Part shown: positions 3,915-59,332 of the stretch, piece after piece
Layout: every line of letters starts with the position of its first letter
Position numbering within the stretch: the stretch's first letter is position 1
DNA from: a bacterium
Lineage (GTDB): Bacteria; JAGOBX01
DNA: 64,000 bases
Direction: 5' to 3'
Assembly: GCA_029551925.1 (NCBI GenBank)
Contig: JAKPEO010000056.1
Coordinates: 703 to 64,702, forward strand
The notes under the pieces: model-generated
Told to the model about the DNA's origin: nothing
Databases searched by the model: none
What the model saw: the letters and a program-made list of their open reading frames with translations, nothing else
Program-made: the position numbers and the translations under genes

Positions 3915-3919
3915 TGTTT

Positions 3920-4519
3920 TTATATATCTCTTGTTATTTCTTCTAATTTAGTATTTAAGCCCTTACATATTTTGTATAAAGTTAAAAGCGACGGCATAAC
4001 CTTTCCGTTTTCTATTTGCGAACATAAACTTATTGATAAATCTATTTTATCAGATAAATCTTTTAGTGTCATTTTTTGAGATTTTCTTAATTTTTTTAAT
4101 CTGCCGCCTACTGTTTCTGCAATGTAGTCGTCTATATCTGTTAGTAAATTATTTTTACGCGCAATTTTATTTATTAAATCAATAATTCCTTGATTATCAA
4201 ATGGTTTTTTTATATAATCTTCCGCACCTAATTTTAAAGTATTCACAGCGCTTTCTACTGATGGATAACCAGTAATTATTACGATAGCCGCTTTTGGATT
4301 ATAGCGTTTTAATTCTGTTATTCCTTCCTCTCCGCTTTTTCCTGGCATTATTAAATCTAAAAATATAATATGAAATTTTTCAGATTTGACTTTAATAATA
4401 GCATCATCTATATTCATTGCAGAAGTTACTTCCCACCCCTGTTCTATTAATAATTTTTTAAAATATAATTGTACTGCCTGTTCGTCATCAACAACTAATA
4501 TTTTTAAATTTATTGCCAT
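3920..4519 (-). CDS. response regulator with XRE-family (Cro/C1) helix-turn-helix output domain
   Basis: REC domain (ILVVDDEQ, IIFLDLIMPG, ITGY, KKPF) followed by RLKKLRKSQKMTLKDLSDKIDLSISLCSQIENGK, a typical HTH_XRE. Only 5 nt separate it from the kinase gene. Confidence 0.8.
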   Translation of the reverse strand: MAINLKILVVDDEQAVQLYFKKLLIEQGWEVTSAMNIDDAIIKVKSEKFHIIFLDLIMPGKSGEEGITELKRYNPKAAIVIITGYPSVESAVNTLKLGAEDYIKKPFDNQGIIDLINKIARKNNLLTDIDDYIAETVGGRLKKLRKSQKMTLKDLSDKIDLSISLCSQIENGKVMPSLLTLYKICKGLNTKLEEITRDI

Positions 4520-24735: not shown

Positions 24736-25005
24736 ATGAAAAGTGTGATTATTGAAAAAAAATCTGATGATGAATTAAAGAAAATAGGTGTTTTAAATTG
24801 GGGTATATGGACAAAAGAAAAATCTATATTTGATTGGTATTATGACAGCGATGAGCAGTGTTATATATTAGATGGCCGCGTGATTGTTCATACTGCGGAA
24901 GGCGATTATGAAATAAAAAGAGGCGATTTTGTGACTTTCAAAAAAGGATTAAAATGCAAGTGGGAAATTTTAGAGGATATACGAAAACATTATAATTTTG
25001 TTTGA
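24736..25005 (+). CDS. small cupin, DUF861/cupin_3-like
   Basis: 89 aa with W..W......F.W.Y...E.CYILDG.V .. GD.V.F..G..C.W.. pattern. Strong AAGGAGG Shine-Dalgarno. Confidence 0.65.
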   Translation: MKSVIIEKKSDDELKKIGVLNWGIWTKEKSIFDWYYDSDEQCYILDGRVIVHTAEGDYEIKRGDFVTFKKGLKCKWEILEDIRKHYNFV

Positions 25006-25016
25006 TTGAAATAATT

Positions 25017-26024
25017 ATGAAAAAAGAAGTAAAAGTAGGATTATTTTTTTTAGTGGCATTAGCGATATTTTCGTATCTTATTATTAGATATAAACATATA
25101 GAATTCGGCAAAAAAACATATAGTATTTATACTTATTTTTCAACAGTGTCCGGAATAGAAATTAATTCATTAGTGAAATTATCAGGGTTTAAAGTTGGCA
25201 GGGTGGTTGAAATTATACCAGAAACAGATAATAACAGAATAAAAGTGATTATGCATATTCGAAATGAGGTAAAGATACATAAAGATGCAGTTGCGCGAAT
25301 GCAGATGGATAATGTTATGGGCGGTAAACATATATCGATTTCATTTGGCAAGGCAAAAGAATATTTGCAAGATAATGATTATATTATAAGTGAAGACCAG
25401 ATGGATATAGAAAAATTAGTGCAGAGTTTTACTGAAACTTCTGAAGATGCCAAAAAATTAATCAAAAAATTTTATGAGATGTTAGATGAAAATCAATTGA
25501 AAGTCAAATCGTTTATTGAAAATATCGAAGAAATTGCGCGCGATTCAAAACCGAAAATTAATAATATTTTGACATATATAGATACTGCGATGCCTGATTT
25601 AAAAAAATCATTAAGTAATATAGAAAATATAACGATGAAGATACGAGATGGCAAAGGGACATTGGGTAAAGCAGTGAATGATCCGAAATTGTATGAAGAA
25701 TTGATTGATTCCTTTGAAAATGTAAAAAAGAGTTTTGCGCGTGTGGAAAATATTCTTGCGAGAAATGAGGATAATATTGACAGTATAGTAGTTGGTTTGC
25801 GCGATACAATAGTTCCTGTAAAAAAGAGTTTTTCTAATTTAAGCGATATAACAGATAAAATTAAGCGCGGTGAAGGCACTGTGGGAATGCTGGTGAATGA
25901 TACGGGTTTATATACAAGCGCCAAAAAGACAATAGAAAAGATAAATGAAAATTTAGAAGATCAGCGTGAACAGACGATAATGTCAACTTTTACAGGTACG
26001 ATATTGGGGATATTTAAATTTTAA
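25017..26024 (+). CDS. mlaD: MCE/MlaD-domain protein
   Basis: N-terminal anchor KVGLFFLVALAIFSYLI, then MCE-like SGIEINSLVKLSGFKVGRVVEI, followed by a long helical C-terminus. ATG at 25017 preferred. Confidence 0.7.
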   Translation: MKKEVKVGLFFLVALAIFSYLIIRYKHIEFGKKTYSIYTYFSTVSGIEINSLVKLSGFKVGRVVEIIPETDNNRIKVIMHIRNEVKIHKDAVARMQMDNVMGGKHISISFGKAKEYLQDNDYIISEDQMDIEKLVQSFTETSEDAKKLIKKFYEMLDENQLKVKSFIENIEEIARDSKPKINNILTYIDTAMPDLKKSLSNIENITMKIRDGKGTLGKAVNDPKLYEELIDSFENVKKSFARVENILARNEDNIDSIVVGLRDTIVPVKKSFSNLSDITDKIKRGEGTVGMLVNDTGLYTSAKKTIEKINENLEDQREQTIMSTFTGTILGIFKF

Positions 26025-29365: not shown

Positions 29366-30805
29366 ATGTATTTATTAGAAAAACTGTATTTGCTGGTAGA
29401 GTATCTAAATAATAGAGTTGCCACATTACAAAAAACAGATGTAGAAAATTATTTAGAAAAGCTGCGGTTACAAACGAATACTGAATTTATATCATTATAT
29501 TTATTTGATTCAAGTTATCATTTACAATATACGACTAATAGTTTTGTCGGGCAGATAAATCTGAATAATCCGCTAATAAAAAAAGTATTTTTAAAAAAAA
29601 ATGCGATTATAGCGTCAGCGCCGCAAATATTTCATAATATAGTATTGATATTTAAAGATTACAAATGCAATATTTATCCGCTTTTTTTTAATAACACTAA
29701 TTTAGGGCTCGTAATTTTATTTTTTAAAAACAAAATGAACGAAGAATTAAAATGGTTTGCCGATTTAGCTGTTAGATATTTAGCGCAAATAATATATGGC
29801 AAGACGGATGTATTGCTGAACGGACAAAGCGGCGATAACGCAGCAGATACAATTTTTTTTGAAAATCCGATAATGCAAAAAAATATTGAAATTATAAAAA
29901 ATATAGCGCCTACAAAAATTAATGTGTTATTGACAGGCGAAAGCGGCGCAGGTAAAGAATTAATGGCGCGTTATATTCATAAATTAAGTGACAGAAAAGA
30001 ATATCCTTTTATTACGGTATCTTGCAGTGCCATCCCGTCGACTTTAATAGAAAGCGAATTATTCGGAGTAAAAAAAGGGGCGTTTACAGGTGCGTTAGCG
30101 GATAGAAAAGGAAAATTTTTATTAGCAGATAAAGGCACAGTTTTTTTAGATGATGTGTCAGAATTATCAGAAAATGTTCAGATGAAGTTATTAAGAGTGC
30201 TTCAAGAACGCAAAATACAGCCGCTCGGCGATGTAGAAGAACAATTAATAGATGTTAGAATAATAGCTGCGACGCGCGAACCTTTGGAAAAATTAATTAG
30301 TTCAAAGAAAATTCGTGAAGATTTATTTTTTAGATTGAATGGTATAGTTATTAATATTCCGCCACTTCGCGAGCGTCGTGAAGATTTGCCGTTATTGATA
30401 AATTATTTTTTGAATAAATATAATGTTGCTTATTCTAAAAATATAAAAATTCCAAATGACATTTTGAAGAAAATGTTTAAAAATGAATGGCGCGGAAATG
30501 TGAGAGAATTACAAAATTATATAGAACGCCTTGTAGTGCTTTCTGATGAAAATGAAATAGTTGAAAATCTTAATTTATACGCAAGCGTGGATAGAAAAAT
30601 AACTAACTCAACAGAATTAGATGAATTATTAAAAATACAAGAGTCAAACAATATTACTTTATCGGAAGCAGAATATTTATTCAAAAAATGGTTTTTGAAA
30701 ATGCAATTATCAAAGAATAATTTTAATATTACAAATACCGCAAAAAAGATTAATGTTCAGCGTACATATTTAAGTAAATTAGTAAAGGATTATAAATTAA
30801 AGTAA
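29366..30805 (+). CDS. sigma-54-dependent transcriptional activator (GAF-like N-terminus, AAA+, Fis-type HTH)
   Basis: GESGAGKE Walker A, ESELFG, GAFTGA, RVIAATRE-like IIAATRE, and C-terminal NITNTAKKINVQRTYLSKLVK. Confidence 0.9.
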   Translation: MYLLEKLYLLVEYLNNRVATLQKTDVENYLEKLRLQTNTEFISLYLFDSSYHLQYTTNSFVGQINLNNPLIKKVFLKKNAIIASAPQIFHNIVLIFKDYKCNIYPLFFNNTNLGLVILFFKNKMNEELKWFADLAVRYLAQIIYGKTDVLLNGQSGDNAADTIFFENPIMQKNIEIIKNIAPTKINVLLTGESGAGKELMARYIHKLSDRKEYPFITVSCSAIPSTLIESELFGVKKGAFTGALADRKGKFLLADKGTVFLDDVSELSENVQMKLLRVLQERKIQPLGDVEEQLIDVRIIAATREPLEKLISSKKIREDLFFRLNGIVINIPPLRERREDLPLLINYFLNKYNVAYSKNIKIPNDILKKMFKNEWRGNVRELQNYIERLVVLSDENEIVENLNLYASVDRKITNSTELDELLKIQESNNITLSEAEYLFKKWFLKMQLSKNNFNITNTAKKINVQRTYLSKLVKDYKLK

Positions 30806-30820
30806 AGGAGCGAAGATTAT

Positions 30821-31360
30821 ATGTTAAAAAAAGTTGATTTAAAATATACAAATAGATTAATAAATCACGGACCGCTTGTTATTGTATCAGCAGAAAATGC
30901 AGATAAACGCACATTTACTCCGATAGCCTGGAATATGCCTGTTGAGCATTCGCCGGCATTAATTGCTTTGACAATAGCAAAAGAAAATTTTGTTAATACA
31001 TTAATCAAAAAATCAAAAGAATTTTGTGTGAATATCCCGAGCATTGATTATTTGGATTTAGTGCTAAAATTAGGGAGCGTATCCGGTAAAGAGATAGATA
31101 AAATCAGAGAATACAAATTGAAGGTCAAAAAATGTAAAAAAATAAATTGTCATTATTGGACAGAAGCAATAGCGACGATTGAATGCAAACTTATAAAAAC
31201 TGTCGGCATATCAGAAGTAGATATTTTTATTGGCGAAGCATTATATTGTTCAGCAAATGAAAATTTTAAAAACGATTGTTGGTCAGCAGATAAATTGCAG
31301 ACCGTCCATCATTTAGGCAATTTGAATTTTGTAACTCTCAAAAAAATAAAAAGAAATTAA
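30821..31360 (+). CDS. flavin reductase-like FMN-binding (split-barrel) protein
   Basis: GPLVIVSAENADKRTFTPIAWNMPV ... PALIALTIAKENFVNTLIKKSKEFCVNIPS, a typical Flavin_Reduct pattern. Confidence 0.7.
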   Translation: MLKKVDLKYTNRLINHGPLVIVSAENADKRTFTPIAWNMPVEHSPALIALTIAKENFVNTLIKKSKEFCVNIPSIDYLDLVLKLGSVSGKEIDKIREYKLKVKKCKKINCHYWTEAIATIECKLIKTVGISEVDIFIGEALYCSANENFKNDCWSADKLQTVHHLGNLNFVTLKKIKRN

Positions 31361-31361
31361 T

Positions 31362-31390
31362 TTGACAATGTTTGAAATGAAAAGTAAAAT
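31362..31390 (+). promoter_or_regulatory. sigma70-type promoter candidate TTGACA-17-TAAAAT
   Basis: TTGACA at 31362-31367 and TAAAAT at 31385-31390, ~55 nt upstream of the hydrogenase-like MCP gene. Confidence 0.4.
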
Positions 31391-31443
31391 TATTATTTAA
31401 TTAAGATGTTTTTAAAAAAATATAAATAACAAGGTGTTAAAAA

Positions 31444-33318
31444 ATGCAAAATTTAGCGGCTGTAATAAAAATTGATGAAACAAAATGTATAAATTGCTAT
31501 CGCTGCATAAGCGTATGTCCAGTGAAATATTGTAATGACGGTAGCGGTGATTATGTTAAAATAAATCATAATCTTTGTTTGGGCTGCGGTGCTTGTATTA
31601 AAGCGTGTTCGCATAAAGCGCGTATCGGAATAGATGATTTAGATTTATTTTTAGAAGATTTATCAAAAGGTATTCCAATAGTAGCAATAGCGGCGCCAGC
31701 GGTCGCTTCAAATTTTCCATATAAATATTTAAAATTAAATACTTGGCTGAAATCAAAAGGAGTTAAAGCGATATTTGATGTAAGTTTTGGCGCGGAATTA
31801 ACAATAAAATCATATTTAGAATATGTGAAAGCAAGTAACCCTAAATGCGTGATTGCTCAGCCTTGTCCTGCGATTGTGACATTTATAGAAATTTACAAAC
31901 CGGAATTAATTACATATTTATCGCCCGCACACAGTCCAATGCTTCATACCATCGCTATGGTGAAAAATTTTTATACGCAGTATCGAAATTGTAAGTTTGT
32001 AGTTATCTCTCCCTGTTTAGCAAAACGCAGAGAATTTAATGAAACGAATTTAGGCGATTATAATGTTACAATTGCAAATTTGAATAGATATTTTGAAAAT
32101 AATAATATTTCGTTAAATGCTTTACAAGATACAGAATACGATAATCCGCCAGCAGAACGCGCTGTATTATTTTCTACGCCAGGCGGATTAATGAGGACCG
32201 CGATGCGCGAGATACCGCAAATAATGGAAGCCACAAGAAAAATAGAAGGCAACCCGCTAATCTATCATTATTTAGAAAAATTAATTGATATTATAAACGC
32301 CAATAAATCGCCATTAATTGTAGATTGTTTAAATTGTGAATTTGGCTGTAATGCCGGTCCCGGCACCTTAAATATTGATGAACATCCTGATGATTTTGAA
32401 TTTTATATAGAAGAACGGCAGCGTGAAATGCGCGAAAAATACAAACCTACTGGCTTGAATAAATTAACAAAAACAAATAAAAAATTAAAAAAAACAATAA
32501 ATAGTTTTTGGAAGCCGGGAATATATGATAGACATTATCGGAATTTATCTGAAAATAATATTTTGAAAAATCCGAATGAAATTCAATTAAAAGAAATATA
32601 CGAATCAATGTTAAAAAAAAGTGATGAAGATATTTATAATTGCTCATCATGCGGGTATAATTCCTGCAGAAATATGGCGATTGCAATTTTTAATAATTTA
32701 AACAAAAAAGAAAATTGTCATTATTATCAGAAAAAATTATTAGAATTAGAACATTCGAGAGTAGAAGATGAAATGCTGAAAACTCAAAAGGCAAATAAAG
32801 AAATGATAAGTATCGCTAAATCTATAAGCGAAGCGATTATTGAACTCGATACGAATAACATTACAATAAAAAAGATGGCAGAGGATTTATTAAGAGAATC
32901 AAAAATACAGGAAAAAAGTTTTGTTAATCTTGTTAAAGAAATAACCAACACTTCCGCGATTACCAAAGAATTTAATACGATAGTATCAGCGATTACAAAA
33001 ATAGCGGAGCAAACAGGATTATTATCGCTAAATGCCGCGATAGAAGCAGCGCGGGCTGGCGCATCAGGCAAAGGTTTTGCAATTGTTGCAGACGAAGTGA
33101 AAAAGTTGTCAATGCATACGCAAATTGAAGCTAAAAAAATCGAACCATACGCTGAAAAAATTAAATCTGTATTTGATATGATTATTGATAAAGTAAAATA
33201 TTCAGCGGAAAAATATTCTGAAACGAGCAATTTAGTAGAAAATATGACGGCGGCAGCTGTAGAAATTTCAGAAGCTACTGGTAAATTACGGCAGGAAATT
33301 ATAGATAAAAATTTATAA
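31444..33318 (+). CDS. soluble [FeFe]-hydrogenase-like sensor fused to a methyl-accepting chemotaxis (MCP) signalling domain
   Basis: Two ferredoxin motifs ([24 protein letters not shown]). H-cluster-type motifs [19 protein letters not shown] and [13 protein letters not shown]. An extra CSSCGYNSC...C motif. C-terminal MCP hairpin [37 protein letters not shown]. No TM segments. Confidence 0.85.
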
Positions 33319-35570: not shown

Positions 35571-37133
35571 ATGAAGAAAAAAAATATAAAATTATTTTTT
35601 TTTATTTTTTGCTGTGTTTTTTTGTTTTTTTTAAATGAAAAAAATATAAATGCAGCAAATGATGAAGTAAAAATAATAAATGAATATTTGCAGAATTTAA
35701 AAAAAATTATTTCTAATTCGCCGATTGATTTAGTAGCGTCAAAAGAAAATGAAGTTTTAAATGAAATTAATTTTTTTGATAAAAATATTTTCGAAAAATT
35801 ATGGATATATGTTCAGCAAGATATTTTAGATGCAAATAATATAAATGTTTTTGTAAAAGAAATAAAAATTAATAATGAATATTATGAAGTTGAGATTTTG
35901 AAAATTGGTAAAATATCGTATTTATTCAGAACATCAGATGATAAATTAGTCGGATATTTAGATTACAATGATAAAAGTTATATTTGGAAAATAGCGGAGC
36001 CGCGCGTCAAAAAAGAAATATTAAAAGCGTTTAAAATTTATAATAAAGTAGCTATACCTGAAATGTGTATGCTGCCTATATTAGCGCCTAAAAAAATAAA
36101 AATTCTTGAATTATCACAACTGCCGCAAAATTTCGATAATCTGATTGCATTAAAAAAACAATTGGATAATGATATAAACAATGTAAATTTATTAAAAGTT
36201 TTTTTTGATGAATGCTTGAAATATCAGTCGTATTTATATTCTGTTGTTTATGTTGATGATGAAATTTATGTTGGTTCATTAGGTCGTCAGCCGGCAAGTA
36301 TAATAGTATTTGGCAATTTAAACGGATACTATAATTTAAAAAATAAAAGAGTCTATGGAATATTAAATTTTCAAAAAGACCGGAAAAAAATAGAAGCGAT
36401 AGATTATTTTAAGACATTATCATATTCAAAAAAAATTAAGGCGTTATTTGAAAATTTAGAAAGCGGAAAATTATTTTTTGCGCCAATAGATATTAGTCAA
36501 GGCCGCGCGCGCGAGCGTTTAGAGTTTGGAAAAAATATAATAGAATATTTAAAATCCGGAGGATTATTAGTTTATCCTATATTATTAATTGGATTAATTT
36601 CGATAATTATTGTAATCGAACGGCTGATATTTTTAAAAAGAAAAATAGGCAATTCTGATGAATTAACCACTAATATTATTGAATTGATTCAAAAAAAAGA
36701 TTGGCAGACAGCAGAAAATATTTGTAAACAAAAAAAATGGCTAATAGCGAAAATATTATTGCGCGGCATACAAAATAAAAATGCTGATGCGGAACAGATG
36801 ACTAATGTATTGAATGCCGCGGCGCTTTTTGAAATACCGAAATTAGAGAGATATTTATCGACTTTAAATGTATTTGCCGCTATTACCCCGCTGCTTGGAT
36901 TATTAGGAACGGTTGTCGGTATGATTAAGACATTTGAGGCAATATCAATATTTGGCGCAGGTGACCCGCGCTTGATGTCTGCTGGTATATCTGAAGCTTT
37001 GATTACGACTGAATTAGGGCTTAGTGTCGCTATACCTATACTTTTTATTCATAATTTATTAGAAAATAAAGTTGATATTGTTGTGTCAGATATAGCGCGC
37101 GATTGTTTGCGATTTTGCAATGCGTTAAAATAA
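35571..37133 (+). CDS. MotA/TolQ/ExbB-family proton channel protein with ~330-aa N-terminal periplasmic extension
   Basis: Signal peptide and a long soluble domain. C-terminal PLLGLLGTVVGMIKTFEAI ... SEALITTELGLSVAIPILFIHN. Confidence 0.8.
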   Translation: MKKKNIKLFFFIFCCVFLFFLNEKNINAANDEVKIINEYLQNLKKIISNSPIDLVASKENEVLNEINFFDKNIFEKLWIYVQQDILDANNINVFVKEIKINNEYYEVEILKIGKISYLFRTSDDKLVGYLDYNDKSYIWKIAEPRVKKEILKAFKIYNKVAIPEMCMLPILAPKKIKILELSQLPQNFDNLIALKKQLDNDINNVNLLKVFFDECLKYQSYLYSVVYVDDEIYVGSLGRQPASIIVFGNLNGYYNLKNKRVYGILNFQKDRKKIEAIDYFKTLSYSKKIKALFENLESGKLFFAPIDISQGRARERLEFGKNIIEYLKSGGLLVYPILLIGLISIIIVIERLIFLKRKIGNSDELTTNIIELIQKKDWQTAENICKQKKWLIAKILLRGIQNKNADAEQMTNVLNAAALFEIPKLERYLSTLNVFAAITPLLGLLGTVVGMIKTFEAISIFGAGDPRLMSAGISEALITTELGLSVAIPILFIHNLLENKVDIVVSDIARDCLRFCNALK

Positions 37134-37158
37134 ATTTTTGTTTTTATAAATTTATATT

Positions 37159-37734
37159 ATGACAAATTTATTTTATAAGGCGATAGACGATTTGCAATCA
37201 GGCGGTATTATTATGCTGCTTTTATATATTATTTCAATTTATCTTTGGACTAATATGCTTAAAAAATATTGGTTTTTAAAAAAACAGCAATCAGAGAAAG
37301 TAGATAAAATATTATGTTTTAAAGATTTTAATAGCTTTTCTGAATTATGCGAAGAGTCATTATTTTTAAATATTTTTAAGAGTTTAAAACAAACGCCATC
37401 AAATCAAAAAATAAATAAATTTTATGAATTATCTATTTTTGCAGCATCGCTTTTTAATAAAGATTTGAAGATAATTAATGCCTTGATTATCATTGCGCCG
37501 TTGCTTGGATTATTGGGCACAGTTAATGGTATGATAAAAACATTTGAAACATTAAATTATTACAATGCTGAAACATTAGCGTTTTCTGACGGCATCAAAC
37601 AGGCGCTTTATACAACTGAATTAGGTTTGGTTATATCTATTCCAGCATTTTTTTTCTTTAATAGATTAAAGCGCAAAGTAGAAAAATTAACACAACAAAT
37701 AAATAAATTAGAATTATTAATAAAAGAAAATTAA
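37159..37734 (+). CDS. exbB: MotA/TolQ/ExbB-family proton channel protein (short form)
   Basis: PLLGLLGTVNGMIKTFE ... KQALYTTELGLVISIPAFFFFN. Confidence 0.8.
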   Translation: MTNLFYKAIDDLQSGGIIMLLLYIISIYLWTNMLKKYWFLKKQQSEKVDKILCFKDFNSFSELCEESLFLNIFKSLKQTPSNQKINKFYELSIFAASLFNKDLKIINALIIIAPLLGLLGTVNGMIKTFETLNYYNAETLAFSDGIKQALYTTELGLVISIPAFFFFNRLKRKVEKLTQQINKLELLIKEN

Positions 37735-37739
37735 AAAAA

Positions 37740-38150
37740 ATGCTTAATATCAAACGCGCGACTAAACGGATAAATGAAACTATAAATATTACGCCACTAA
37801 TAGATGTAATATTTATTTTATTATTGTTTTTTATAGTTACTACGCAATTTAAAAAAGATGCGGAATTGAATATTGTCAATCCTTCATCAAAAACAGCAGT
37901 CGCGCAGAAGATAGAAAAAATATTAGTGATTTCGTTAACTGCTGATGAAAAAATATTTTTTGATGGTAAACAAATAGAATTGCTGCAATTGCCTGAAATT
38001 TTAAAATACACTGATGCCGGCGCAGTTCAAAAGGCGGTAGTTTTGAATATTGACAAAAAGGTTTCAACGGGTTTTCTTATTGCCATTATAGATGAATGTA
38101 AATTAAGCGGCTTTGAAAATGTAAAGATTAGAGTTAATAAAATTGAATAA
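37740..38150 (+). CDS. exbD: ExbD/TolR biopolymer transport protein
   Basis: INITPLIDVIFILLLFFIVTTQF. 136 aa. Confidence 0.85.
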   Translation: MLNIKRATKRINETINITPLIDVIFILLLFFIVTTQFKKDAELNIVNPSSKTAVAQKIEKILVISLTADEKIFFDGKQIELLQLPEILKYTDAGAVQKAVVLNIDKKVSTGFLIAIIDECKLSGFENVKIRVNKIE

Positions 38151-38167
38151 AATAGAATAAAATTGAT

Positions 38168-38938
38168 TTGATTATGATTAAATTTGAAAATTTAATTTTT
38201 TTTGTTTGCGCGTGTATAATTACATTGTTTATTTTTATTTTATTATCGAGTTTGACAATTAAACAGCATCCGATTAAATTTAAAATAACAGACGAAATTT
38301 TTTTAGATATTTACGATACGCCAAATCAAATACAGAAAAAAAATAGCAATATTGCGTCAAGTCAAAAAAATACGCAGGAAAAAAAAATAGAGCAGCCGCT
38401 TGAAAAAACAGAAAAAATTAATGTCATTAATAACGAAAGATCCATAGAGGAAGAAAAAATAAATGAAGAATCAAAAAAAGAAATAAAGCCGGAGCCGGAG
38501 TATAATATTGAAAATGTTAATCTTTCGCCAAAAGCCGAAGATAAAAAGCAGTCGAATAATTTTGTAATTAGCGAAAATAAAAATAATAGCAGCATATTAA
38601 AAAATGATAATGATGCTGGCGATAAAGATTTTACTAATAATACAGGAGTATATAATCAGAGCGAGTTAGACGTTGCGCCAAAAGTTTTAAATAAAGTTAT
38701 GCCAGAATATCCTTATTTTGCGAGAGAATCCAATAAGACAGGTATTGTAAGATTATCGTTTGTTATTTTATCTGACGGCAGCGTATCTGATATTAAAGTA
38801 ATAAGTGAGACACTGCCCGGAGTATTTACTACTAGCGCAATAAAGGCATTAAGACAATGGAAATTTCAAGCCGGAATTTTAAAAAATAAAAAAGTATCTA
38901 CTTTGGCGACAATAGAATTCAAATTCAAATTAGAATAA
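38168..38938 (+). CDS. tonB: TonB-family energy transducer
   Basis: N-terminal TM, an E/K/P-rich linker, and a C-terminal TonB_C (PEYPYFARESNKTGIVRLSFVILSDGSVSDIKVI ... ALRQWKFQ). The start could be the ATG at 38174. Confidence 0.8.
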   Translation: MIMIKFENLIFFVCACIITLFIFILLSSLTIKQHPIKFKITDEIFLDIYDTPNQIQKKNSNIASSQKNTQEKKIEQPLEKTEKINVINNERSIEEEKINEESKKEIKPEPEYNIENVNLSPKAEDKKQSNNFVISENKNNSSILKNDNDAGDKDFTNNTGVYNQSELDVAPKVLNKVMPEYPYFARESNKTGIVRLSFVILSDGSVSDIKVISETLPGVFTTSAIKALRQWKFQAGILKNKKVSTLATIEFKFKLE

Positions 38939-42661: not shown

Positions 42662-43453
42662 TTGATAGGCAAGAATATTAGATTAGAAAGAATAATTAAT
42701 CGCAATACTGGAAAAGCAGTGATTATTCCAATGGATCACGGATTGACAGTCGGTCCGATTAAGGGCTTAGAAAATATGAAAAACACGATAAATGCAGTAG
42801 CAAACGGCGGCGCAAATGCGATAATACTGCATAAAGGAATAGTTATAAATGGTCATCGCAAGAAAGGAAAAGATATAGGGCTGATTATTCATTTATCAGG
42901 AAGCACATCATTGAGTTCTGATCCTAATGCTAAAGTATTAGTATGTTCAGTAGAAGAAGCGATAAGATTAGGCGCTGATGCTGTGTCAATACATATTAAT
43001 ATTGGCGCTGAGAGCGAGAGCAAAATGCTTGAAGATTTTGGCGCTATTTCTAAAAAATGTATGGATTGGGGAATGCCGTTATTAGCGATGATTTATACGC
43101 GCGGCAAAAAAATCAAAAATGAAAATGAGGTCGAAGTAGTAAAGCATGCAGCCCGCGTTGCCGCAGAAATGGGCGCTGATATAGTGAAAGTATCATATAC
43201 CGGCAGCGAATCATCATTTAAGCAAGTTGTAAAAGGTTGCCCGATTCCTGTGATGATAGCTGGCGGCGAGACACAAGCGAATGAACGTGATTTTTTGGAA
43301 TGTGTGTATTCAGCCATCCGCGCAGGCGCATCCGGAGTGACAATAGGTAGGAATGCGTTTAGCCATAAAAATCCAGCAAAGATGACAGCTGCTATTTGCG
43401 CGATAGTTCATCAAAAGAAATCAGTGAATGAAGCGTTGAAATTATTAGATTAA
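42662..43453 (+). CDS. aroA': 2-amino-3,7-dideoxy-D-threo-hept-6-ulosonate (ADH) synthase, class I aldolase DhnA family (archaeal-type AroA')
   Basis: TTG start after an AGGAGG Shine-Dalgarno. Near-collinear resemblance to my recollection of M. jannaschii MJ0400: LERI.NR..GK.VI.PMDHG...[54 protein letters not shown]. Confidence 0.8.
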
Positions 43454-43463
43454 GGAACGATAG

Positions 43464-44468
43464 ATGAGAAAGATACTATTTAATTCGTCAGATAAATTTG
43501 TTAAAAATTTAATTACTTTTGCGATAGAGCATGGAATTACTGATTTTTTAACCGCCAGCGAAGAAGTAGCGCAAAAAATCAGAGAATTAGCGAAAGTGAA
43601 AATTATAAGTTCGCAGAGTTTTGCAGATATATTAATTGGTAGAGATATTGAATATATCAATGTTAGCGATAAAAAGAGCGAAGAATTAGCAGTGCAATCA
43701 GCGCGCGTTAAACCTGTTATTGTAAAATTAGAAAATTGGAAAATTATACCAATTGAAAATATATTAGCGCAGACAGATAATATAATAGTAGAAGTCAATA
43801 ATTTTGAAGAATTGAAATTATGCGCTGGGATATTAGAAAAAGGCGTTAGCGCTTTTGTTATAAATACGAGCGATTTTAATGAATTAAAAGAGATGATTGA
43901 TTATATAAATAGTCAGACATTAAAATTAGAATTAATTGACGCTGAAATCATAAAGGTTTCGCAGTTGCCTGTGACTGATAGAGTGTGCATTGATTCCTGC
44001 AATATAATGACAATCGGCGAAGGTTTTTTAATTGGCTCGTCGAGTCAATGTTTATTTTTAGTTCATTCTGAAACCGTAGAAAATCCGTATGTTGCAGCGC
44101 GGCCTTTCAGAGTAAATGCCGGCGCAGTGCATTCGTATATTTTACTGCCGGATAATAAAACGCAGTATTTATCAGAATTAAAAGCAGGCGATTCGTTATT
44201 GACTGTAAATGCCAAAGGCGAGACGCAGTTGAATGTAGTAGGCAGAATAAAACTCGAAAAGCGTCCGATGTTGCTAATAAAGGCGAAATACGAGCAGCGC
44301 GAATTTTCGGTAGTTTTGCAGAATGCCGAGACTGTGAATTTAACAAGCGCGGAAGGTATGCCTATTTCAGTGACAAAACTCAAATCAGGTGATAAAGTAA
44401 AGTGTTATATAGAAAATGTCGGCAGACATTTTGGTATGAGCATAGTAGAGACGATAACCGAAAAATAA
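43464..44468 (+). CDS. aroB': 3-dehydroquinate synthase II (archaeal-type AroB')
   Basis: 334 aa. WKIIPIENILAQ and RPFRVNAGAVHSY blocks match the DHQ synthase II family as I remember it. Adjacent to the ADH synthase gene, as in archaea. Confidence 0.75.
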   Translation: MRKILFNSSDKFVKNLITFAIEHGITDFLTASEEVAQKIRELAKVKIISSQSFADILIGRDIEYINVSDKKSEELAVQSARVKPVIVKLENWKIIPIENILAQTDNIIVEVNNFEELKLCAGILEKGVSAFVINTSDFNELKEMIDYINSQTLKLELIDAEIIKVSQLPVTDRVCIDSCNIMTIGEGFLIGSSSQCLFLVHSETVENPYVAARPFRVNAGAVHSYILLPDNKTQYLSELKAGDSLLTVNAKGETQLNVVGRIKLEKRPMLLIKAKYEQREFSVVLQNAETVNLTSAEGMPISVTKLKSGDKVKCYIENVGRHFGMSIVETITEK

Positions 44469-47864: not shown

Positions 47865-48827
47865 ATGTCAAAATTAAAAGAAAAAAATCAAGAAATTAAC
47901 GAGTTTTTGGACGAAAAAAAAATAAGAGAATATTATGTTCCGCAATTTTTGGAATATTTAGCAACTGAAAAAAATTATTCGGAATTGACTATCCAATCAT
48001 ATTATTTAGATGTAGTGAAGTTTATAACTTATTTGGAAAAGGAATTTGGCGGCTATGCTTTGAATAATATCAATTATCGATTGATCCGGGATTTTTTAAG
48101 AATTTTAGAAATGAACGATGCCCAGAAATATAATCGCAATTCGTTAATAAGAATTTTGTCAGGCGTAAAATCTTATTTTAAATTTTTGACTAAAAAAAAT
48201 ATTATAACGATTAATCCCGCGCGAACAGTGGCAACTCCAAAAAAAGAAAAATATATACCAGAATTTTTATTTGAACAAGAATTAGAAAATTTTTTAAAGT
48301 TGCCGAATTGCAGTAAATTCGATGGGCTGCGCGATTATGTAATATTAGAGTTTTTGTATTCAACTGGCGTGCGTGTAAGCGAACTTGTAGGAATAAAAGT
48401 TAGCGATGTCCAAAATGCCGATGTTTTAAAAGTTTTTGGCAAAGGCAAAAAAGAACGAATTATTCCGATTGGCAGCGAATTAAAATGCGCAATAGCTGAT
48501 TATCTTCCGCGGCGCGAGTTGTTTTTGAATAGAAAAAATAAAAAAGAAAATCAATATTTATTTGTTAATTTAATGGGCGATAGATTAACGGATAGAGGTG
48601 TGAGATTAATAGTTGAAAAGTATTTGTTGAAATCAGCGCTTTTAAAAAATGTTTCGCCGCATACATTTAGACATACATTTGCTACGCATTTATTAAATCG
48701 CGGCGCTGATATTAGAGCAGTGCAGGAATTACTCGGACATTCGTCGTTATCGACCACTCAAATATATACGCATTTAACTACTGAACGAATAAAAAATGTG
48801 TATAATGCTTGTCATCCGCGCGCGTAA
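47865..48827 (+). CDS. tyrosine recombinase, XerC/XerD family
   Basis: SAM-like N-domain. Catalytic R (YSTGVRVSEL), HTFRHTFATHLL and LGHSSLSTTQIYTH. Confidence 0.85.
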   Translation: MSKLKEKNQEINEFLDEKKIREYYVPQFLEYLATEKNYSELTIQSYYLDVVKFITYLEKEFGGYALNNINYRLIRDFLRILEMNDAQKYNRNSLIRILSGVKSYFKFLTKKNIITINPARTVATPKKEKYIPEFLFEQELENFLKLPNCSKFDGLRDYVILEFLYSTGVRVSELVGIKVSDVQNADVLKVFGKGKKERIIPIGSELKCAIADYLPRRELFLNRKNKKENQYLFVNLMGDRLTDRGVRLIVEKYLLKSALLKNVSPHTFRHTFATHLLNRGADIRAVQELLGHSSLSTTQIYTHLTTERIKNVYNACHPRA

Positions 48828-57646: not shown

Positions 57647-58939
57647 ATGAAACATATCTTATTAATAAATCCTTATATATATGATTTTGCCGCATACGAT
57701 TTTTGGTTAAAACCATTGGGCTTATTGATTATAGCGAGATTATTAAAAAATTATGGTTTTACAATTAGTTTGATTGATTGCCTTGATAGAAGTGAATATC
57801 ATTATGAAAAGGAATATCGCACGCTTTACAATAATTCAGGCAAGTTCAAAAAAATTGAAGTTTCAAAACCTGAATGTTTAAAATTTATAAATAGAAAATT
57901 TTATAGATATGGTATTACGCTTGAAGAGTTTGAAAAAAAACTGCAAAATACATATCCCAAGCCGTCTGTAATTTGCGTTACTTGTATGATGAGTTATTGG
58001 TATTACGGAGCAAATGAAACCATAAAAATAATAAGAAAATTTTATCCTGATACTCCGATTATATTTGGCGGAATATATCATACATTATGGACTGACCATT
58101 CAAAAAAAAATATAGATGCCGATTATTTTATTGAAGGCGCCGCTGAAAATAAACTGCTTTTACTATTGAATGAATTATTTGATTTGAATTTGAAAATAGA
58201 TGCGCAGCCTGAATTTTTAGCGCCTGATTATTCGCTGTATCAAAAAATTTATTCAGCGCCTGTATTAACTACACGTGGCTGTATTTTTAATTGCGACTAT
58301 TGCGCGTCAAAAATATTATTTCAAAAATTTATACAGTATCCTATTGACAGAGTATTTGAAATAATTAATTATTTGGTTAATGTCAGAAAAATAGAAGATA
58401 TTGCATTTTATGATGATGCGCTATTGTATAATGCACAAAACCATTTTGCGCCATTAATGAAAAAAATAATTGATAGTAATATAAAATGCAGATTTCATTT
58501 GCCAAACGCTGTTCATATAAAATATATAACTTTTGAAATTGCAGAATTGATGAAACTTGCGAATTTTGATACAATCAGATTAGGATTAGAAGCAATTGAT
58601 GAAGATTGGCACAATCAGACGAGCGGAAAATTTACATTAAAAGATTATGATAGATGTTTGGATAATTTTAATAGAGCAGGTATAGATTTAAAAAAAGTCA
58701 AAGCGTATATTTTGACTGGATTACCTGAACAATCATTAGAAGATATAAAAAAAACAGCGGAAATAATTAAATCTTCGGGAATAGACATAGAATACGCTTT
58801 TTATTCGCCTATTCCCCACACCCAATATTGGCAAAAATCAATAATGAAAAATCCAGAAATTTTAAATGAGCCGCTTTTGACAAATTGTTCAGTTTATTCA
58901 GTTTTAAATAATTTATTTTTTGATAGACGCAGAAAATAA
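57647..58939 (+). CDS. B12-binding-domain radical SAM protein (class B-like)
   Basis: N-terminal Rossmann-like ILLINPYIYDFAAYDFWLKPLGLLIIARLL and CxxxCxxC cluster TTRGCIFNCDYCAS. Confidence 0.8.
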   Translation: MKHILLINPYIYDFAAYDFWLKPLGLLIIARLLKNYGFTISLIDCLDRSEYHYEKEYRTLYNNSGKFKKIEVSKPECLKFINRKFYRYGITLEEFEKKLQNTYPKPSVICVTCMMSYWYYGANETIKIIRKFYPDTPIIFGGIYHTLWTDHSKKNIDADYFIEGAAENKLLLLLNELFDLNLKIDAQPEFLAPDYSLYQKIYSAPVLTTRGCIFNCDYCASKILFQKFIQYPIDRVFEIINYLVNVRKIEDIAFYDDALLYNAQNHFAPLMKKIIDSNIKCRFHLPNAVHIKYITFEIAELMKLANFDTIRLGLEAIDEDWHNQTSGKFTLKDYDRCLDNFNRAGIDLKKVKAYILTGLPEQSLEDIKKTAEIIKSSGIDIEYAFYSPIPHTQYWQKSIMKNPEILNEPLLTNCSVYSVLNNLFFDRRRK

Positions 58940-59251: not shown

Positions 59252-59323
59252 GGACCGCTAGCTCAATGGTAGAGCAACGGACTCTTAATCCGTAGGTTGA
59301 AGGTTCAAGTCCTTCGCGGTTCA
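59252..59323 (+). tRNA. tRNA-Lys (anticodon CTT), no encoded CCA
   Basis: Hand-folded cloverleaf. Acceptor GGACCGC/GCGGTTC (one G-U), D arm GCTC-AATGGTA-GAGC, anticodon arm ACGGA-CTCTTAA-TCCGT, variable AGGTT, T arm GAAGG-TTCAAGT-CCTTC, discriminator A. Confidence 0.9.
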
Positions 59324-59332
59324 CTGCTATAC

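What the first reader, a model, noticed from the sequence alone, without database searches (positions are those of the whole stretch)
31444..33318. Cytoplasmic [FeFe]-hydrogenase-like domain fused to an MCP signalling domain (putative H2/redox chemoreceptor)
One polypeptide contains the following elements:
- two 4Fe-4S ferredoxin motifs;
- an H-cluster domain with the cluster-ligating cysteines ([21 protein letters not shown]);
- an additional CSSCGYNSC...C motif;
- a short, soluble MCP signalling hairpin with a perfect [18 protein letters not shown] core.

The catalytic TSCCP motif reads AQPCP, so the Cys next to the ligating Cys (the proton-relay position in catalytic enzymes) is absent, as reported for sensory hydrogenases. 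This matches the bioinformatically defined 'group C2, chemotactic' class of putative sensory [FeFe]-hydrogenases. As far as I know, no member of that class has been characterised biochemically. No che or flagellar genes occur in this 64-kb window.
Basis: partly seen in the sequence, partly recalled or inferred. Interest (0 to 1): 0.7.

Follow-up and report, generated by a model that had tools for sequence, protein, structure and literature searches.

The report
Hydrogenase-like sensor fused to chemoreceptor
This gene encodes a soluble chemotaxis-type receptor whose sensing half is a degenerate [FeFe]-hydrogenase; it is a typical new member of a very widespread class that has been catalogued since 2016 and is thought to let anaerobes respond to hydrogen gas, but for which I found no experimental test.

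Summary
Window 31444-33318 (+) encodes a 624-aa soluble protein with these parts:
- two [4Fe-4S] ferredoxin motifs;
- an [FeFe]-hydrogenase H-domain with all four H-cluster cysteines in register (C141, C191, C298, C302);
- the Cx2Cx4Cx16C motif typical of sensory group C/D hydrogenases;
- a short MCP signalling hairpin of about 24 heptads with no methylation region.

The proton-relay Cys is replaced by Pro (QPCP).

The protein is ordinary for that class:
- At least 581 relatives occur in GTDB species genomes across many anaerobic phyla.
- The same sensor module recurs at 45-60% identity fused to histidine kinases and PP2C phosphatases, with the same active-site signature (P/S/L plus an extra Cys).
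- Outputs were swapped about 20 times on a rough tree.
- 11 of 80 relatives sit in cheA/cheW/cheB/cheR clusters.

The window itself has no che, flagellar or hydEFG genes. My searches found no paper characterising a C2 member.

The most likely function is a cytoplasmic H2 (or H2/redox) receptor controlling CheA, and this is inferred. Presence of HydEFG and Che genes in this genome could not be tested. Novelty: new member of a known kind.

The parts
31362..31390 (+). Sigma-70-like promoter candidate, TTGACA-17 nt-TAAAAT, in the 83-bp gap upstream of the gene
   Evidence: 11 of 12 consensus matches. This is a consensus match only, and such matches are common in this AT-rich DNA (44 found against 32 expected). 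No sigma-54 -24/-12 element was found in the gap.
31431..31436 (+). Ribosome-binding site AAGGTG, 7 nt before the ATG
   Evidence: Read directly from the sequence.
31444..33318 (+). Complete ORF of 624 aa plus stop: sensory-type [FeFe]-hydrogenase module fused to an MCP signalling hairpin
   Evidence: The same protein is found on independent assemblies, and more than 100 full-length homologues share the architecture.
31465..31620 (+). N-terminal 2x[4Fe-4S] ferredoxin domain (residues 8-59; ligands C15/18/21/25 and C45/48/51/55)
   Evidence: Pfam Fer4, Fer4_7 and Fer4_10. All eight Cys are invariant in 40 homologues.
31678..32373 (+). H-domain of the [FeFe]-hydrogenase fold (residues 79-310)
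   Evidence: Pfam PF02906, E = 1.7e-32. The AlphaFold2 model has mean pLDDT 87.8. Foldseek top hits are CbA5H, DdH and CpI with probability 1.00.
31858..31869 (+). L1 motif QPCP (residues 139-142). C141 is the [4Fe-4S]H ligand (CpI C300) and P140 replaces the proton-relay C299.
   Evidence: Aligned to TSCCP of solved hydrogenases. Q, P, C and P are invariant in 40 homologues. Pro occupies this position in 119 of 137 module representatives.
32008..32034 (+). L2 motif SPCLAKRRE (residues 189-197). C191 corresponds to CpI C355, K194 to K358 and E197 to E361; S189 replaces M353.
32323..32358 (+). L3 motif [12 protein letters not shown] (residues 294-305). C298 corresponds to CpI C499 and C302 to C503 (the bridging Cys); L296 replaces M497. 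C295 is an extra, near-invariant Cys.
   Evidence: The profile alignment to E(V/L)M(A/T)CxxGCxxG of 9rkm, 7qv7 and 7q4v (weak third or second domains) shows the register.
32641..32718 (+). C-terminal Cx2Cx4Cx16C [4Fe-4S] motif (C400, C403, C408, C425)
   Evidence: Exact regex match. The four Cys are invariant in 137 of 137 representatives. The motif is a hallmark of M2e/M2f sensory hydrogenases (PMC8163306). Pfam FeS PF04060 scores 21.9 bits.
32719..33315 (+). MCP signalling hairpin (residues 426-624). The N-arm helix 426-537 starts immediately after C425, the tip is at 538-541, and the C-arm is 539-623.
   Evidence: Pfam MCPsignal, E = 2.1e-27. Secondary structure is from the AF2 model. The region aligns without gaps to Tsr, Aer and Tm14.
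33007..33078 (+). Hairpin-tip core [24 protein letters not shown] (residues 522-545), the region that binds CheA/CheW in canonical receptors
   Evidence: The equivalence to Tsr 373-396 follows from the offset of 149 in the alignments. The CheA/CheW-binding role is established knowledge of MCPs and was not tested here.

Best explanation
The gene encodes a cytoplasmic chemoreceptor whose input module is a sensory-type [FeFe]-hydrogenase (HydDB group C2).

Proposed mechanism, with each step marked:

1. The module binds two N-terminal [4Fe-4S] clusters, an H-cluster and a C-terminal [4Fe-4S] cluster. The ligand sets are shown by sequence and model; cofactor occupancy is inferred.
2. H2 reacts slowly at an H-cluster that lacks the group-A proton pathway (P140 for C299, S189 for M353, L296 for M497). 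This would favour a long-lived reduced state rather than turnover, by analogy with TmHydS and TamHydS. This step is inferred.
3. Electrons leave through the N-terminal clusters to the ferredoxin pool, so the receptor reports H2 relative to cellular redox state. This step is inferred.
4. The resulting conformational change passes through the C-terminal Fe-S knob. Its last ligand, C425, is the first residue before a continuous 112-residue helix that runs to the hairpin tip. The structural continuity is shown in the model; the coupling is inferred.
5. In the homodimeric four-helix bundle, the tip modulates CheA/CheW and so motility or another Che-type output. This step is inferred and is supported by che-cluster linkage in relatives.

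The window protein has no adaptation (methylation) region. Any resetting would therefore have to come from redox re-equilibration of the sensor itself, which is speculative.
For: - Domain hits are well above threshold.
- The four H-cluster Cys, plus the K358 and E361 equivalents and the APAV and SPM motifs, are in register with solved hydrogenases. The four Cys and E197 are invariant, and K194 near-invariant, across 137 cluster representatives.
- The model is confident (pLDDT 87.8) and its best structural matches are all [FeFe]-hydrogenases.
- The Cx2Cx4Cx16C motif is the hallmark of the two sensory groups that have been shown to bind [2Fe]adt and react with H2 (PMC8163306; PMC10055695).
- TamHydS shares the S (M353) and L (M497) substitutions and still forms an H-cluster.
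- The same module is fused to other signal-transduction outputs (HisKA/HATPase 28 of 49, SpoIIE 13 of 49, PAS 31 of 49), which shows it behaves as an input domain.
- In 11 of 80 GTDB loci the gene lies within or beside cheA/cheW/cheB/cheR clusters, several on the same strand.
- The MCP tip residues are conserved.
- Helix 426-537 begins directly after C425.
Against: - I found no biochemical data on any QPCP-type or MCP-fused member.
- HydE/F/G and CheA/W/Y are absent from the 64-kb window. Genome-wide presence cannot be checked.
- Nar1/NARF-type proteins also keep the four Cys but bind no [2Fe] subcluster (my own knowledge), so motif conservation alone does not prove an H-cluster.
- In TamHydS the C-terminal cluster is not reduced by H2 (PMC13104023). 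A simple 'C-terminal cluster redox state is the signal' model is therefore unlikely, and the coupling step is unknown.
- 69 of 80 relatives have no che gene within 10 kb.
- The window protein has no methylation motif.
Confidence: 0.55

Rival explanations
1. The protein is an Fe-S-only redox or energy-taxis sensor. The H-domain carries only its [4Fe-4S] cluster, as in Nar1/NARF, with no [2Fe] subcluster. The four cubane clusters would report the reduction state of the ferredoxin pool to the Che pathway, and H2 would not be the direct ligand.
For: - The proton relay is lost, and M497 is replaced by Leu, which in CpI impaired [2Fe]H integration.
- No maturase genes lie in the window or in 80 x roughly 20-kb flanks of relatives.
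- Nar1-type proteins keep the same Cys motifs (my own knowledge).
- Soluble 24H receptors with PAS domains are proposed redox/O2 sensors (PMC7534058).
Against: - TamHydS has the same S and L substitutions and TmHydS also lacks C299, yet both assemble H-clusters and react with H2.
- The bridging Cys C302 is strictly invariant, K194 near-invariant and F243 highly conserved across 137 representatives. That conservation is easier to explain if a [2Fe] site is present.
- hydEFG genes are commonly unlinked from hydrogenase genes, so their absence from flanks says little.
Confidence: 0.2
2. The protein senses inhibitor or oxidant gases (O2, CO or NO). Damage to or ligation of the H-cluster or Fe-S clusters would trigger a repellent response, giving anaerobes negative aerotaxis.
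For: H-clusters and [4Fe-4S] clusters are intrinsically reactive with O2, CO and NO (established chemistry). All hosts identified are anaerobes.
Against: No specific evidence supports this. Sensory-type enzymes show reduced CO sensitivity (TamHydS). Irreversible cluster damage makes a poor reversible chemotaxis signal.
Confidence: 0.08
3. The input is the same, but the output is not flagellar chemotaxis. In this organism the receptor would feed a Che-like pathway that controls another process, such as type IV pili, biofilm formation or gene expression.
For: - The window shows no flagellar or che genes.
- The organism belongs to a deep uncultured lineage of unknown motility.
- 24H receptors are hard to assign to pathways (PMC7534058).
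- Che-like systems with non-motility outputs are well known (my own knowledge).
Against: The che clusters beside relatives are classical cheA-cheW-cheR-cheB sets with a second conventional MCP. This does not decide the output in this genome.
Confidence: 0.15
4. The protein is a catalytically relevant hydrogenase, and the MCP-like coiled coil serves only as a scaffold or oligomerisation domain.
For: The fold and ligands of a hydrogenase are intact.
Against: - The group-A proton pathway is absent: C299 is replaced by P, S319 by A in the family, and the E279/E282 segment is deleted.
- All NCBIfam hydrogenase models score far below their cutoffs, at most 129 bits against 405-900.
- The CheA/CheW-binding tip is conserved.
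- The same module is fused to kinases and phosphatases.
Confidence: 0.02

Closest known systems
HydDB [FeFe]-hydrogenase group C2, 'chemotactic (putative)' (Sondergaard, Pedersen and Greening 2016, PMC5037454)
   Same: It is defined as sensory-type [FeFe]-hydrogenases linked to methyl-accepting chemotaxis proteins, which is exactly this architecture. Its role is also undetermined.
   Different: Nothing essential differs. The HydDB classifier itself could not be run here. The nearest relatives outside this species are only about 54% identical.
TmHydS, Thermotoga maritima sensory [FeFe]-hydrogenase (group C, M2f)
   Same: [quoted passage not shown]
   Different: Its output is a PAS domain, not an MCP hairpin. 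Its active-site triplet is A/G/S where this protein has P/S/L. It lacks the extra Cys295 position seen here, as far as the cited text shows.
TamHydS, Thermoanaerobacter mathranii (group D, M2e)
   Same: It has the same S (M353) and L (M497) substitutions, the same Cx2Cx4Cx16C motif, low turnover and a stabilised Hred state.
   Different: It has no fused output domain, and C299 is replaced by Ala rather than Pro. Its C-terminal cluster is not reduced by H2, which cautions against assuming redox signalling through that cluster here.
Histidine-kinase-linked and PP2C-linked sensory [FeFe]-hydrogenases (HydDB C1 and C3)
   Same: The sensor module is 45-60% identical and carries the same P/S/L plus Cys295 signature and Fe-S motif. 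The closest single module to the window protein belongs to a hybrid kinase (P0121, 59% identity).
   Different: The output domain differs: HisKA/HATPase_c, Response_reg, Hpt or SpoIIE, often via PAS, instead of an MCP hairpin.
Soluble 24H-class chemoreceptors and Aer-type energy-taxis receptors (for example V. cholerae VC1406 and VCA0864, or E. coli Aer)
   Same: They are cytoplasmic sensing domains with a redox cofactor, coupled to an MCP signalling hairpin. The short hairpin aligns without gaps to Aer and Tsr around the tip.
   Different: The cofactor domain here is a hydrogenase module with four metal clusters, not PAS-FAD or PAS-haem. There is no HAMP domain.
Regulatory [NiFe]-hydrogenases (HoxBC/HupUV with the kinase HoxJ/HupT)
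   Same: The concept is the same: a crippled hydrogenase serves as the H2 sensor of a signal-transduction pathway (cited).
   Different: The metal site and fold are unrelated. The sensor and kinase are separate proteins, and the output is transcription rather than a Che pathway.
Nar1/NARF (eukaryotic hydrogenase-like Fe-S assembly proteins)
   Same: They have the hydrogenase fold and retain the cluster cysteines without hydrogenase activity (my own knowledge).
   Different: They are eukaryotic, have no Cx2Cx4Cx16C domain, no signalling output and no [2Fe] subcluster. This protein clusters with bacterial sensory hydrogenases.

Membership tests
[FeFe]-hydrogenase H-domain (Pfam PF02906 and fold) | Significant match to Fe_hyd_lg_C and the hydrogenase fold | tested here: met
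   113.5 bits against a cutoff of 22.1. Foldseek gives probability 1.00 to CbA5H, DdH and CpI, with target-normalised TM up to 0.66.
[FeFe]-hydrogenase H-domain (Pfam PF02906 and fold) | Four H-cluster cysteines in register (CpI C300, C355, C499, C503) | tested here: met
   C141, C191, C298 and C302 align to L1, L2 and L3 of solved enzymes. They are invariant in 137 of 137 representatives.
[FeFe]-hydrogenase H-domain (Pfam PF02906 and fold) | Actual incorporation of the [2Fe]H subcluster, and HydE/F/G maturases in the genome | not testable with these tools
   No hydEFG in the 64-kb window. The radical SAM gene at 57647-58939 is of the B12-binding type. The genome is not available.
Prototypical or catalytic group A/B [FeFe]-hydrogenase | TSCCP with the proton-relay Cys (C299), the E279/E282/S319 pathway, and M353 and M497 | tested here: not met
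   The protein has P140, S189 and L296. The E279/E282 segment is deleted in the alignment. The S319 position is Ala in the family (Ser in this protein).
Prototypical or catalytic group A/B [FeFe]-hydrogenase | Score above the NCBIfam curated cutoffs (TIGR02512, TIGR04105, NF040763, NF040762) | tested here: not met
   The best score is 129 bits against a cutoff of 450.
Sensory [FeFe]-hydrogenases, groups C/D (M2f/M2e) | N-terminal 2x[4Fe-4S] plus H-domain plus C-terminal Cx2Cx4Cx16C motif | tested here: met
   The definition comes from PMC8163306.
Sensory [FeFe]-hydrogenases, groups C/D (M2f/M2e) | Proton-relay Cys not conserved | tested here: met
   P140. Pro is reported in about 10% of group C sequences.
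Sensory [FeFe]-hydrogenases, groups C/D (M2f/M2e) | PAS domain after the C-terminal cluster (M2f proper) | tested here: not met
   There is no PAS hit. An MCPsignal hairpin follows directly.
HydDB [FeFe] group C2 (chemotactic) | Sensory-type hydrogenase linked to an MCP signalling domain | tested here: met
   Both lie on one polypeptide. More than 100 homologues have the same architecture.
HydDB [FeFe] group C2 (chemotactic) | Assignment by the HydDB classifier or sequence-similarity network | not testable with these tools
   HydDB is not available here. On my rough NJ tree, MCP-fused and other-output modules intermix: at least 21 changes are needed, against a shuffled mean of 41.
Methyl-accepting chemotaxis protein (PF00015) | Signalling domain above the gathering score, with a conserved hairpin tip | tested here: met
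   96.5 bits against a cutoff of 34.6. The tip residues N530, E534, R537, G539, G542, G544, F545 and E551 are conserved.
Methyl-accepting chemotaxis protein (PF00015) | Methylation (adaptation) helices with consensus sites | tested here: not met
   The protein ends at the equivalent of Tsr residue 475, before MH2 sites 493 and 502 (offset). It has no consensus motif, whereas 11 of 40 relatives have one.
Methyl-accepting chemotaxis protein (PF00015) | CheA/CheW partners encoded in the genome | not testable with these tools
   None are in the window. In relatives, 11 of 80 loci carry adjacent cheA/W/B/R genes.
24H heptad class of MCPs | Twelve heptads per arm, assigned by class-specific HMMs | tested here: inconclusive
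   The C-arm is 85 residues (about 12 heptads) here and 85-87 in most relatives. Class HMMs (MiST, or Alexander and Zhulin) were not available.
Nar1/NARF-like non-hydrogenase | Hydrogenase fold with cubane clusters only, in genomes without HydEFG | not testable with these tools
   This needs the genome or biochemistry. Against it, the Cx2Cx4Cx16C domain and the closest relatives are those of bacterial sensory hydrogenases.

The most novel reading that the evidence does not exclude
The QPCP-type module (P for C299, S for M353, L for M497, plus an extra conserved Cys at the V496 position) may be a distinct H2-sensing variant of the H-cluster site, for which my searches found no characterisation. 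It would be wired through C425 directly into a signalling helix. In its MCP-fused form it would be the receptor for bacterial hydrogen taxis in hundreds of anaerobic species, working without methylation-based adaptation in proteins like this one.
Probability: 0.4. Interest if true: 0.65.

Novelty: new member of a known kind. Interest (0 to 1): 0.38.

Why it matters
H2 is a central currency of anaerobic communities. How bacteria perceive it is known mechanistically only for regulatory [NiFe]-hydrogenases, and partly for two PAS-type or stand-alone [FeFe] sensors.

An MCP-fused hydrogenase would link H2 directly to motility and so to the spatial organisation of syntrophic consortia. It would also be a simple system for asking how an H-cluster state is converted into a conformational signal, because the output (CheA activity) is easy to assay.

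This particular gene adds little beyond the many existing homologues, some of them in cultured organisms. Its value is as one more example, not as a discovery.

Tried and rejected
- **Sigma-54 control by the adjacent enhancer-binding protein (29366-30805).** No -24/-12 element lies upstream of the gene. The pattern search gave 14 matches against 21 expected. A sigma-70-like promoter is there instead. A sigma-54 activator lies near the gene in only 4 of 80 loci.
- **A conserved operon partner.** The most frequent neighbour cluster occurs in only 9 of 79 loci. There is no universal partner. Flavin_Reduct (30821-31360) is not conserved next to relatives.
- **Linkage to maturases.** A crude HydF/HydG motif search in 1062 neighbour ORFs found none. 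The test is weak.
- **Finding this organism in GTDB.** The best hit was 54% identical. AlaRS placed it only as a deep uncultured lineage: 61% to the nearest relative, then 51% or less, and 46-48% to the named hits (Calditrichota, KSB1, Zixibacteria, Cloacimonadota and others).
- **Literature on a characterised C2 enzyme, or on Fe_hyd_lg_C as a chemoreceptor input.** Nothing was found. One paper discarded 'C2' calls in Clostridium acetogens as unvalidated. That is a reminder that HydDB C2 hits can be plain MCPs, which is not the case here.
- **Misassembly or artificial fusion.** Rejected, because the same ORF appears in independent assemblies and hundreds of homologues are co-linear.
- **Rfam and tRNA scans.** Only tRNA-Lys at 59252-59324 was found.
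Full report
**1. Observation**

Window 31444-33318 (+) is a 624-codon ORF. It has an AAGGTG ribosome-binding site 7 nt upstream. A near-consensus sigma-70-type promoter candidate (TTGACA-17-TAAAAT, 31362-31390) lies in the 83-bp gap after the preceding gene.

- two CxxCxxCxxxC motifs (residues 15-25 and 45-55);
- QPCP (139-142);
- SPCLAKRRE (189-197);
- CLNCEFGC (295-302);
- CSSCGYNSC (400-408), which extends to an exact Cx2Cx4Cx16C ending at C425;
- [18 protein letters not shown] (522-539).

Pfam gives Fe_hyd_lg_C (79-306, E = 1.7e-32), MCPsignal (479-619, E = 2.1e-27), Fer4 twice, and FeS/PF04060 just under its cutoff. There is no hydrophobic segment, so the protein is cytoplasmic. The identical ORF occurs on an independent JGI contig, and hundreds of co-linear homologues exist. 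The fusion is therefore not an assembly artefact.

**2. Is the hydrogenase part in register?**

Sequence and profile searches against the PDB return only [FeFe]-hydrogenases for residues 5-265.
- QPCP aligns with TSCCP, so C141 corresponds to CpI C300 and P140 occupies the proton-relay position C299.
- SPCLAKRRE aligns with MPCxxKxxE, giving C191 = C355, K194 = K358 and E197 = E361. S189 replaces M353.
- The weaker downstream segments of the profile alignment place [12 protein letters not shown] on E(V/L)M(A/T)CxxGCxxG, giving C298 = C499 and C302 = C503. L296 replaces M497.

CpI numbering is established knowledge, confirmed by the text of PMC10055695.

An AlphaFold2 model built on a 40-sequence alignment is confident, with mean pLDDT 87.8 and pTM 0.71. 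Its best Foldseek matches are all [FeFe]-hydrogenases (CbA5H, DdH, CpI, HydABC and HDCR HydA) at probability 1.00.

The group-A proton pathway is gone. C299 is replaced by Pro, the E279/E282 segment is deleted in the alignment, and the S319 position is Ala in the family. All curated NCBIfam hydrogenase models score far below their cutoffs.

**3. What kind of hydrogenase-like module is it?**

The combination of N-terminal 2x[4Fe-4S], H-domain and C-terminal Cx2Cx4Cx16C is the published hallmark of the putative sensory subclasses M2f (group C, TmHydS) and M2e (group D, TamHydS) (PMC8163306; PMC6984386).

In group C, the C299 position is Ala in about 43% of sequences, Cys in 17%, Pro in about 10% and Ser in about 10% (PMC10055695). 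The three positions compare as follows:

| Enzyme | C299 | M353 | M497 |
|---|---|---|---|
| TmHydS | A | G | S |
| TamHydS | A | S | L |
| This protein | P | S | L |

[quoted passage not shown] By architecture, this protein is a C2 member.

**4. How common is it, and how modular?**

A word-indexed search found more than 100 full-length proteins with Fer4, Fe_hyd_lg_C and MCPsignal at 48-54% identity. They include Thermodesulfatator indicus DSM 15286 and Fuchsiella alkaliacetigena.

They include MAGs labelled Geobacteraceae and other delta-proteobacteria, Bacteroidales, Spirochaetota, Planctomycetota, Fibrobacterota, Acidobacteriota, Synergistaceae, Halanaerobiales, Ignavibacteria, Cloacimonadota and Fusobacteriota.

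Searching only the sensor module (residues 1-430) against 1.84 billion cluster representatives gave 686 clusters at E <= 1e-30. Of the best 150, at 40-62% identity, only 53 contain an MCP domain. A sample of 49 of the others carried PAS (31), HATPase_c (28), HisKA (20), Response_reg (17), SpoIIE (13) and Hpt (6). These are the HydDB C1 and C3 architectures.

The active-site signature is the same whatever the output. The four ligand Cys and the four Fe-S Cys are invariant in 137 of 137 representatives. Pro at the C299 position occurs in 119 of 137, Ser at M353 in 129, Leu at M497 in 135, and an extra Cys at the V496 position in 132.

The single closest module to the window protein belongs to a hybrid histidine kinase (P0121, 59% identity). 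On a rough neighbour-joining tree, the MCP/non-MCP character needs at least 21 changes, against a shuffled mean of 41 and minimum of 34. The module therefore behaves as a mobile input domain whose output has been exchanged many times.

**5. The chemoreceptor half**

Residues 426-624 align without gaps to the tip-proximal parts of Tsr, Aer, Tm1143 and Tm14, at a Tsr offset of 149.

The model shows one continuous helix from 426 to 537, a turn at 538-541, and a return helix from 539 to 623 with a break at 565, near the near-invariant P568. The C-arm is 85 residues, about 12 heptads, and 85-87 in most relatives. The N-arm is 114 residues, with variants of 89, 128 and 142. The four-helix bundle of the dimer would thus be about 24 heptads long, with a roughly 30-residue two-helix stalk up to the Fe-S domain.

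This fits the 24H class in length (class description in PMC7534058). Class HMMs were not available, so the assignment is provisional.

The protein ends at the equivalent of Tsr 475, before the MH2 methylation sites, and has no methylation-consensus motif. Eleven of 40 relatives have one such motif near the C-terminus.

The N-arm helix starts immediately after C425, the last ligand of the C-terminal cluster.

**6. Genomic context**

The window (about 30% GC) has nearly all genes on the + strand. It contains no che, flagellar or hydEFG genes. The MotA_ExbB genes are part of an ExbB-ExbD-TonB set, and the radical SAM gene at 57647-58939 is of the B12-binding type.

Upstream lie a sigma-54 activator and a flavin reductase. 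No sigma-54 promoter precedes the gene, and neither neighbour is conserved.

Across 80 GTDB loci there is no universal neighbour. However, 11 loci place the gene within or next to cheA/cheW/cheB/cheR clusters, usually with a second, conventional MCP, and Pfam verifies these assignments. L056, L077 and L029 have the gene on the same strand, directly upstream of cheA or of an MCP followed by cheA. This is the strongest contextual evidence that the family really signals through Che pathways.

The T. indicus gene stands alone.

The organism is a deep-branching uncultured bacterium. Its AlaRS is 61% identical to the nearest relative, then 51% or less, and 46-48% to named MAG hits (Calditrichota, KSB1, Zixibacteria, Cloacimonadota and others). 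The Mla and Ton genes suggest a diderm envelope.

**7. Mechanism**

Shown here:
- ligand sets for four cubane-type sites and an H-cluster site;
- a hydrogenase fold;
- loss of the catalytic proton pathway;
- a canonical CheA/CheW-binding tip;
- structural continuity between the C-terminal cluster and the signalling helix;
- use of the module as an input to kinases, phosphatases and MCPs;
- che linkage in a minority of genomes.

Inferred: H2 reacts at a slow, sensor-tuned H-cluster, as demonstrated for TmHydS and TamHydS. The resulting state change is transmitted through the C-terminal Fe-S domain to the coiled coil, and CheA activity changes.

There is a caveat from 2026 work. In TamHydS the C-terminal cluster is not reduced under 1 atm H2, and its disruption barely affects catalysis. 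The authors conclude that signalling is unlikely to involve its redox state, although a structural role remains possible (PMC13104023). I therefore favour conformational rather than redox coupling through this domain, with low certainty.

**8. Rivals**

The main rival is an Fe-S-only redox (energy-taxis) sensor without a [2Fe] subcluster, as in Nar1. Motif conservation cannot exclude it. It can only be settled by HydEFG co-occurrence or by spectroscopy.

The other rivals are:
- a sensor for oxidant or inhibitor gases;
- a non-motility Che-like output in this organism;
- a catalytic role, which is very unlikely.

**9. Novelty and verdict**

The class has been catalogued since 2016 and is extremely widespread. 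This gene is a new, fairly divergent member from an uncultured lineage.

My searches found no biochemical or genetic study of an MCP-fused member or of any QPCP-type module. The library does not cover all subscription journals, so this absence is not proof.

It is ordinary for its class and does not make the open question more testable than homologues in cultured bacteria already do.

Noticed in passing
window 32326-32328 (Cys295 codon) and relatives: There is an extra Cys in L3 (DC295LNCxxGC), at the position that is Val, Ile or Leu in group-A enzymes. It is present in 132 of 137 sensor-module representatives whatever the output domain. Its role is unknown. It might substitute for the lost proton-relay Cys.
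   Followed up: partly
window 31531-31533 (Cys30 codon): A ninth, near-invariant Cys (126 of 137) lies between the two ferredoxin CxxCxxCxxxC motifs, in the conserved KYCNDGSGD segment. No function has been assigned to it.
   Followed up: partly
window 33145-33147 (Pro568 codon): A near-invariant proline lies in the C-arm of the MCP hairpin, about 28 residues after the tip, and the AF2 model breaks the helix at 565. This is unusual for MCP coiled coils. The canonical glycine-hinge positions are not Gly in this protein.
   Followed up: no
window 29366-31360: A sigma-54 enhancer-binding protein has an unassigned 165-residue N-terminal region and no detected HTH_8. It is followed by a Flavin_Reduct protein, and both lie directly upstream of the receptor gene on the same strand. 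A sigma-54 activator occurs near relatives in only 4 of 80 loci.
   Followed up: partly
window 42662-44468: A DeoC-family gene is followed by DHQS (PF01959, dehydroquinate synthase II). This pair marks the archaeal-type alternative entry into the shikimate pathway, here in a bacterial contig.
   Followed up: no
window 35571-38938: An ExbB-like (DUF3450 + MotA_ExbB), ExbB, ExbD and TonB_C cluster, together with MlaD and MlaE elsewhere (25002-26024 and 1630-2424), suggests a diderm envelope. The MotA_ExbB hits are not flagellar stators.
   Followed up: partly
window 315-48827, and the whole window: About 44 consecutive genes lie on the + strand (only two are on the minus strand, at 2436-4519), and GC skew is persistently positive. 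The orientation flips after about 59.5 kb. This is consistent with a long leading-strand stretch.
   Followed up: no
window 61050-63665 (AlaRS): The organism is phylogenetically isolated. The best non-self AlaRS is 61% identical, the rest are 51% or less, and named hits (46-48%) are spread over Calditrichota, KSB1, Zixibacteria, Cloacimonadota and Ignavibacteria. No GTDB species genome held a close copy of the receptor (maximum 54%).
   Followed up: partly
L010, L011 (GTDB loci): Two of the best relatives sit in MAGs labelled Nanobdellota archaeon and Methanosarcinales archaeon, and NCBI names another one Woesearchaeota. This is either transfer of a bacterial-type chemoreceptor to archaea or a binning error.
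   Followed up: no
L036 and three other loci: A group-4-type [NiFe]-hydrogenase large subunit (Complex1_49kDa/NiFeSe_Hases) lies about 4 kb upstream of the receptor gene in 4 of 80 loci.
   Followed up: no
window 47865-48827 and 59252-59324: A tyrosine recombinase (Phage_integrase with the SAM-like N domain, possibly XerC/D) ends the long + strand block. The only RNA gene in the window is tRNA-Lys(CTT).
   Followed up: no
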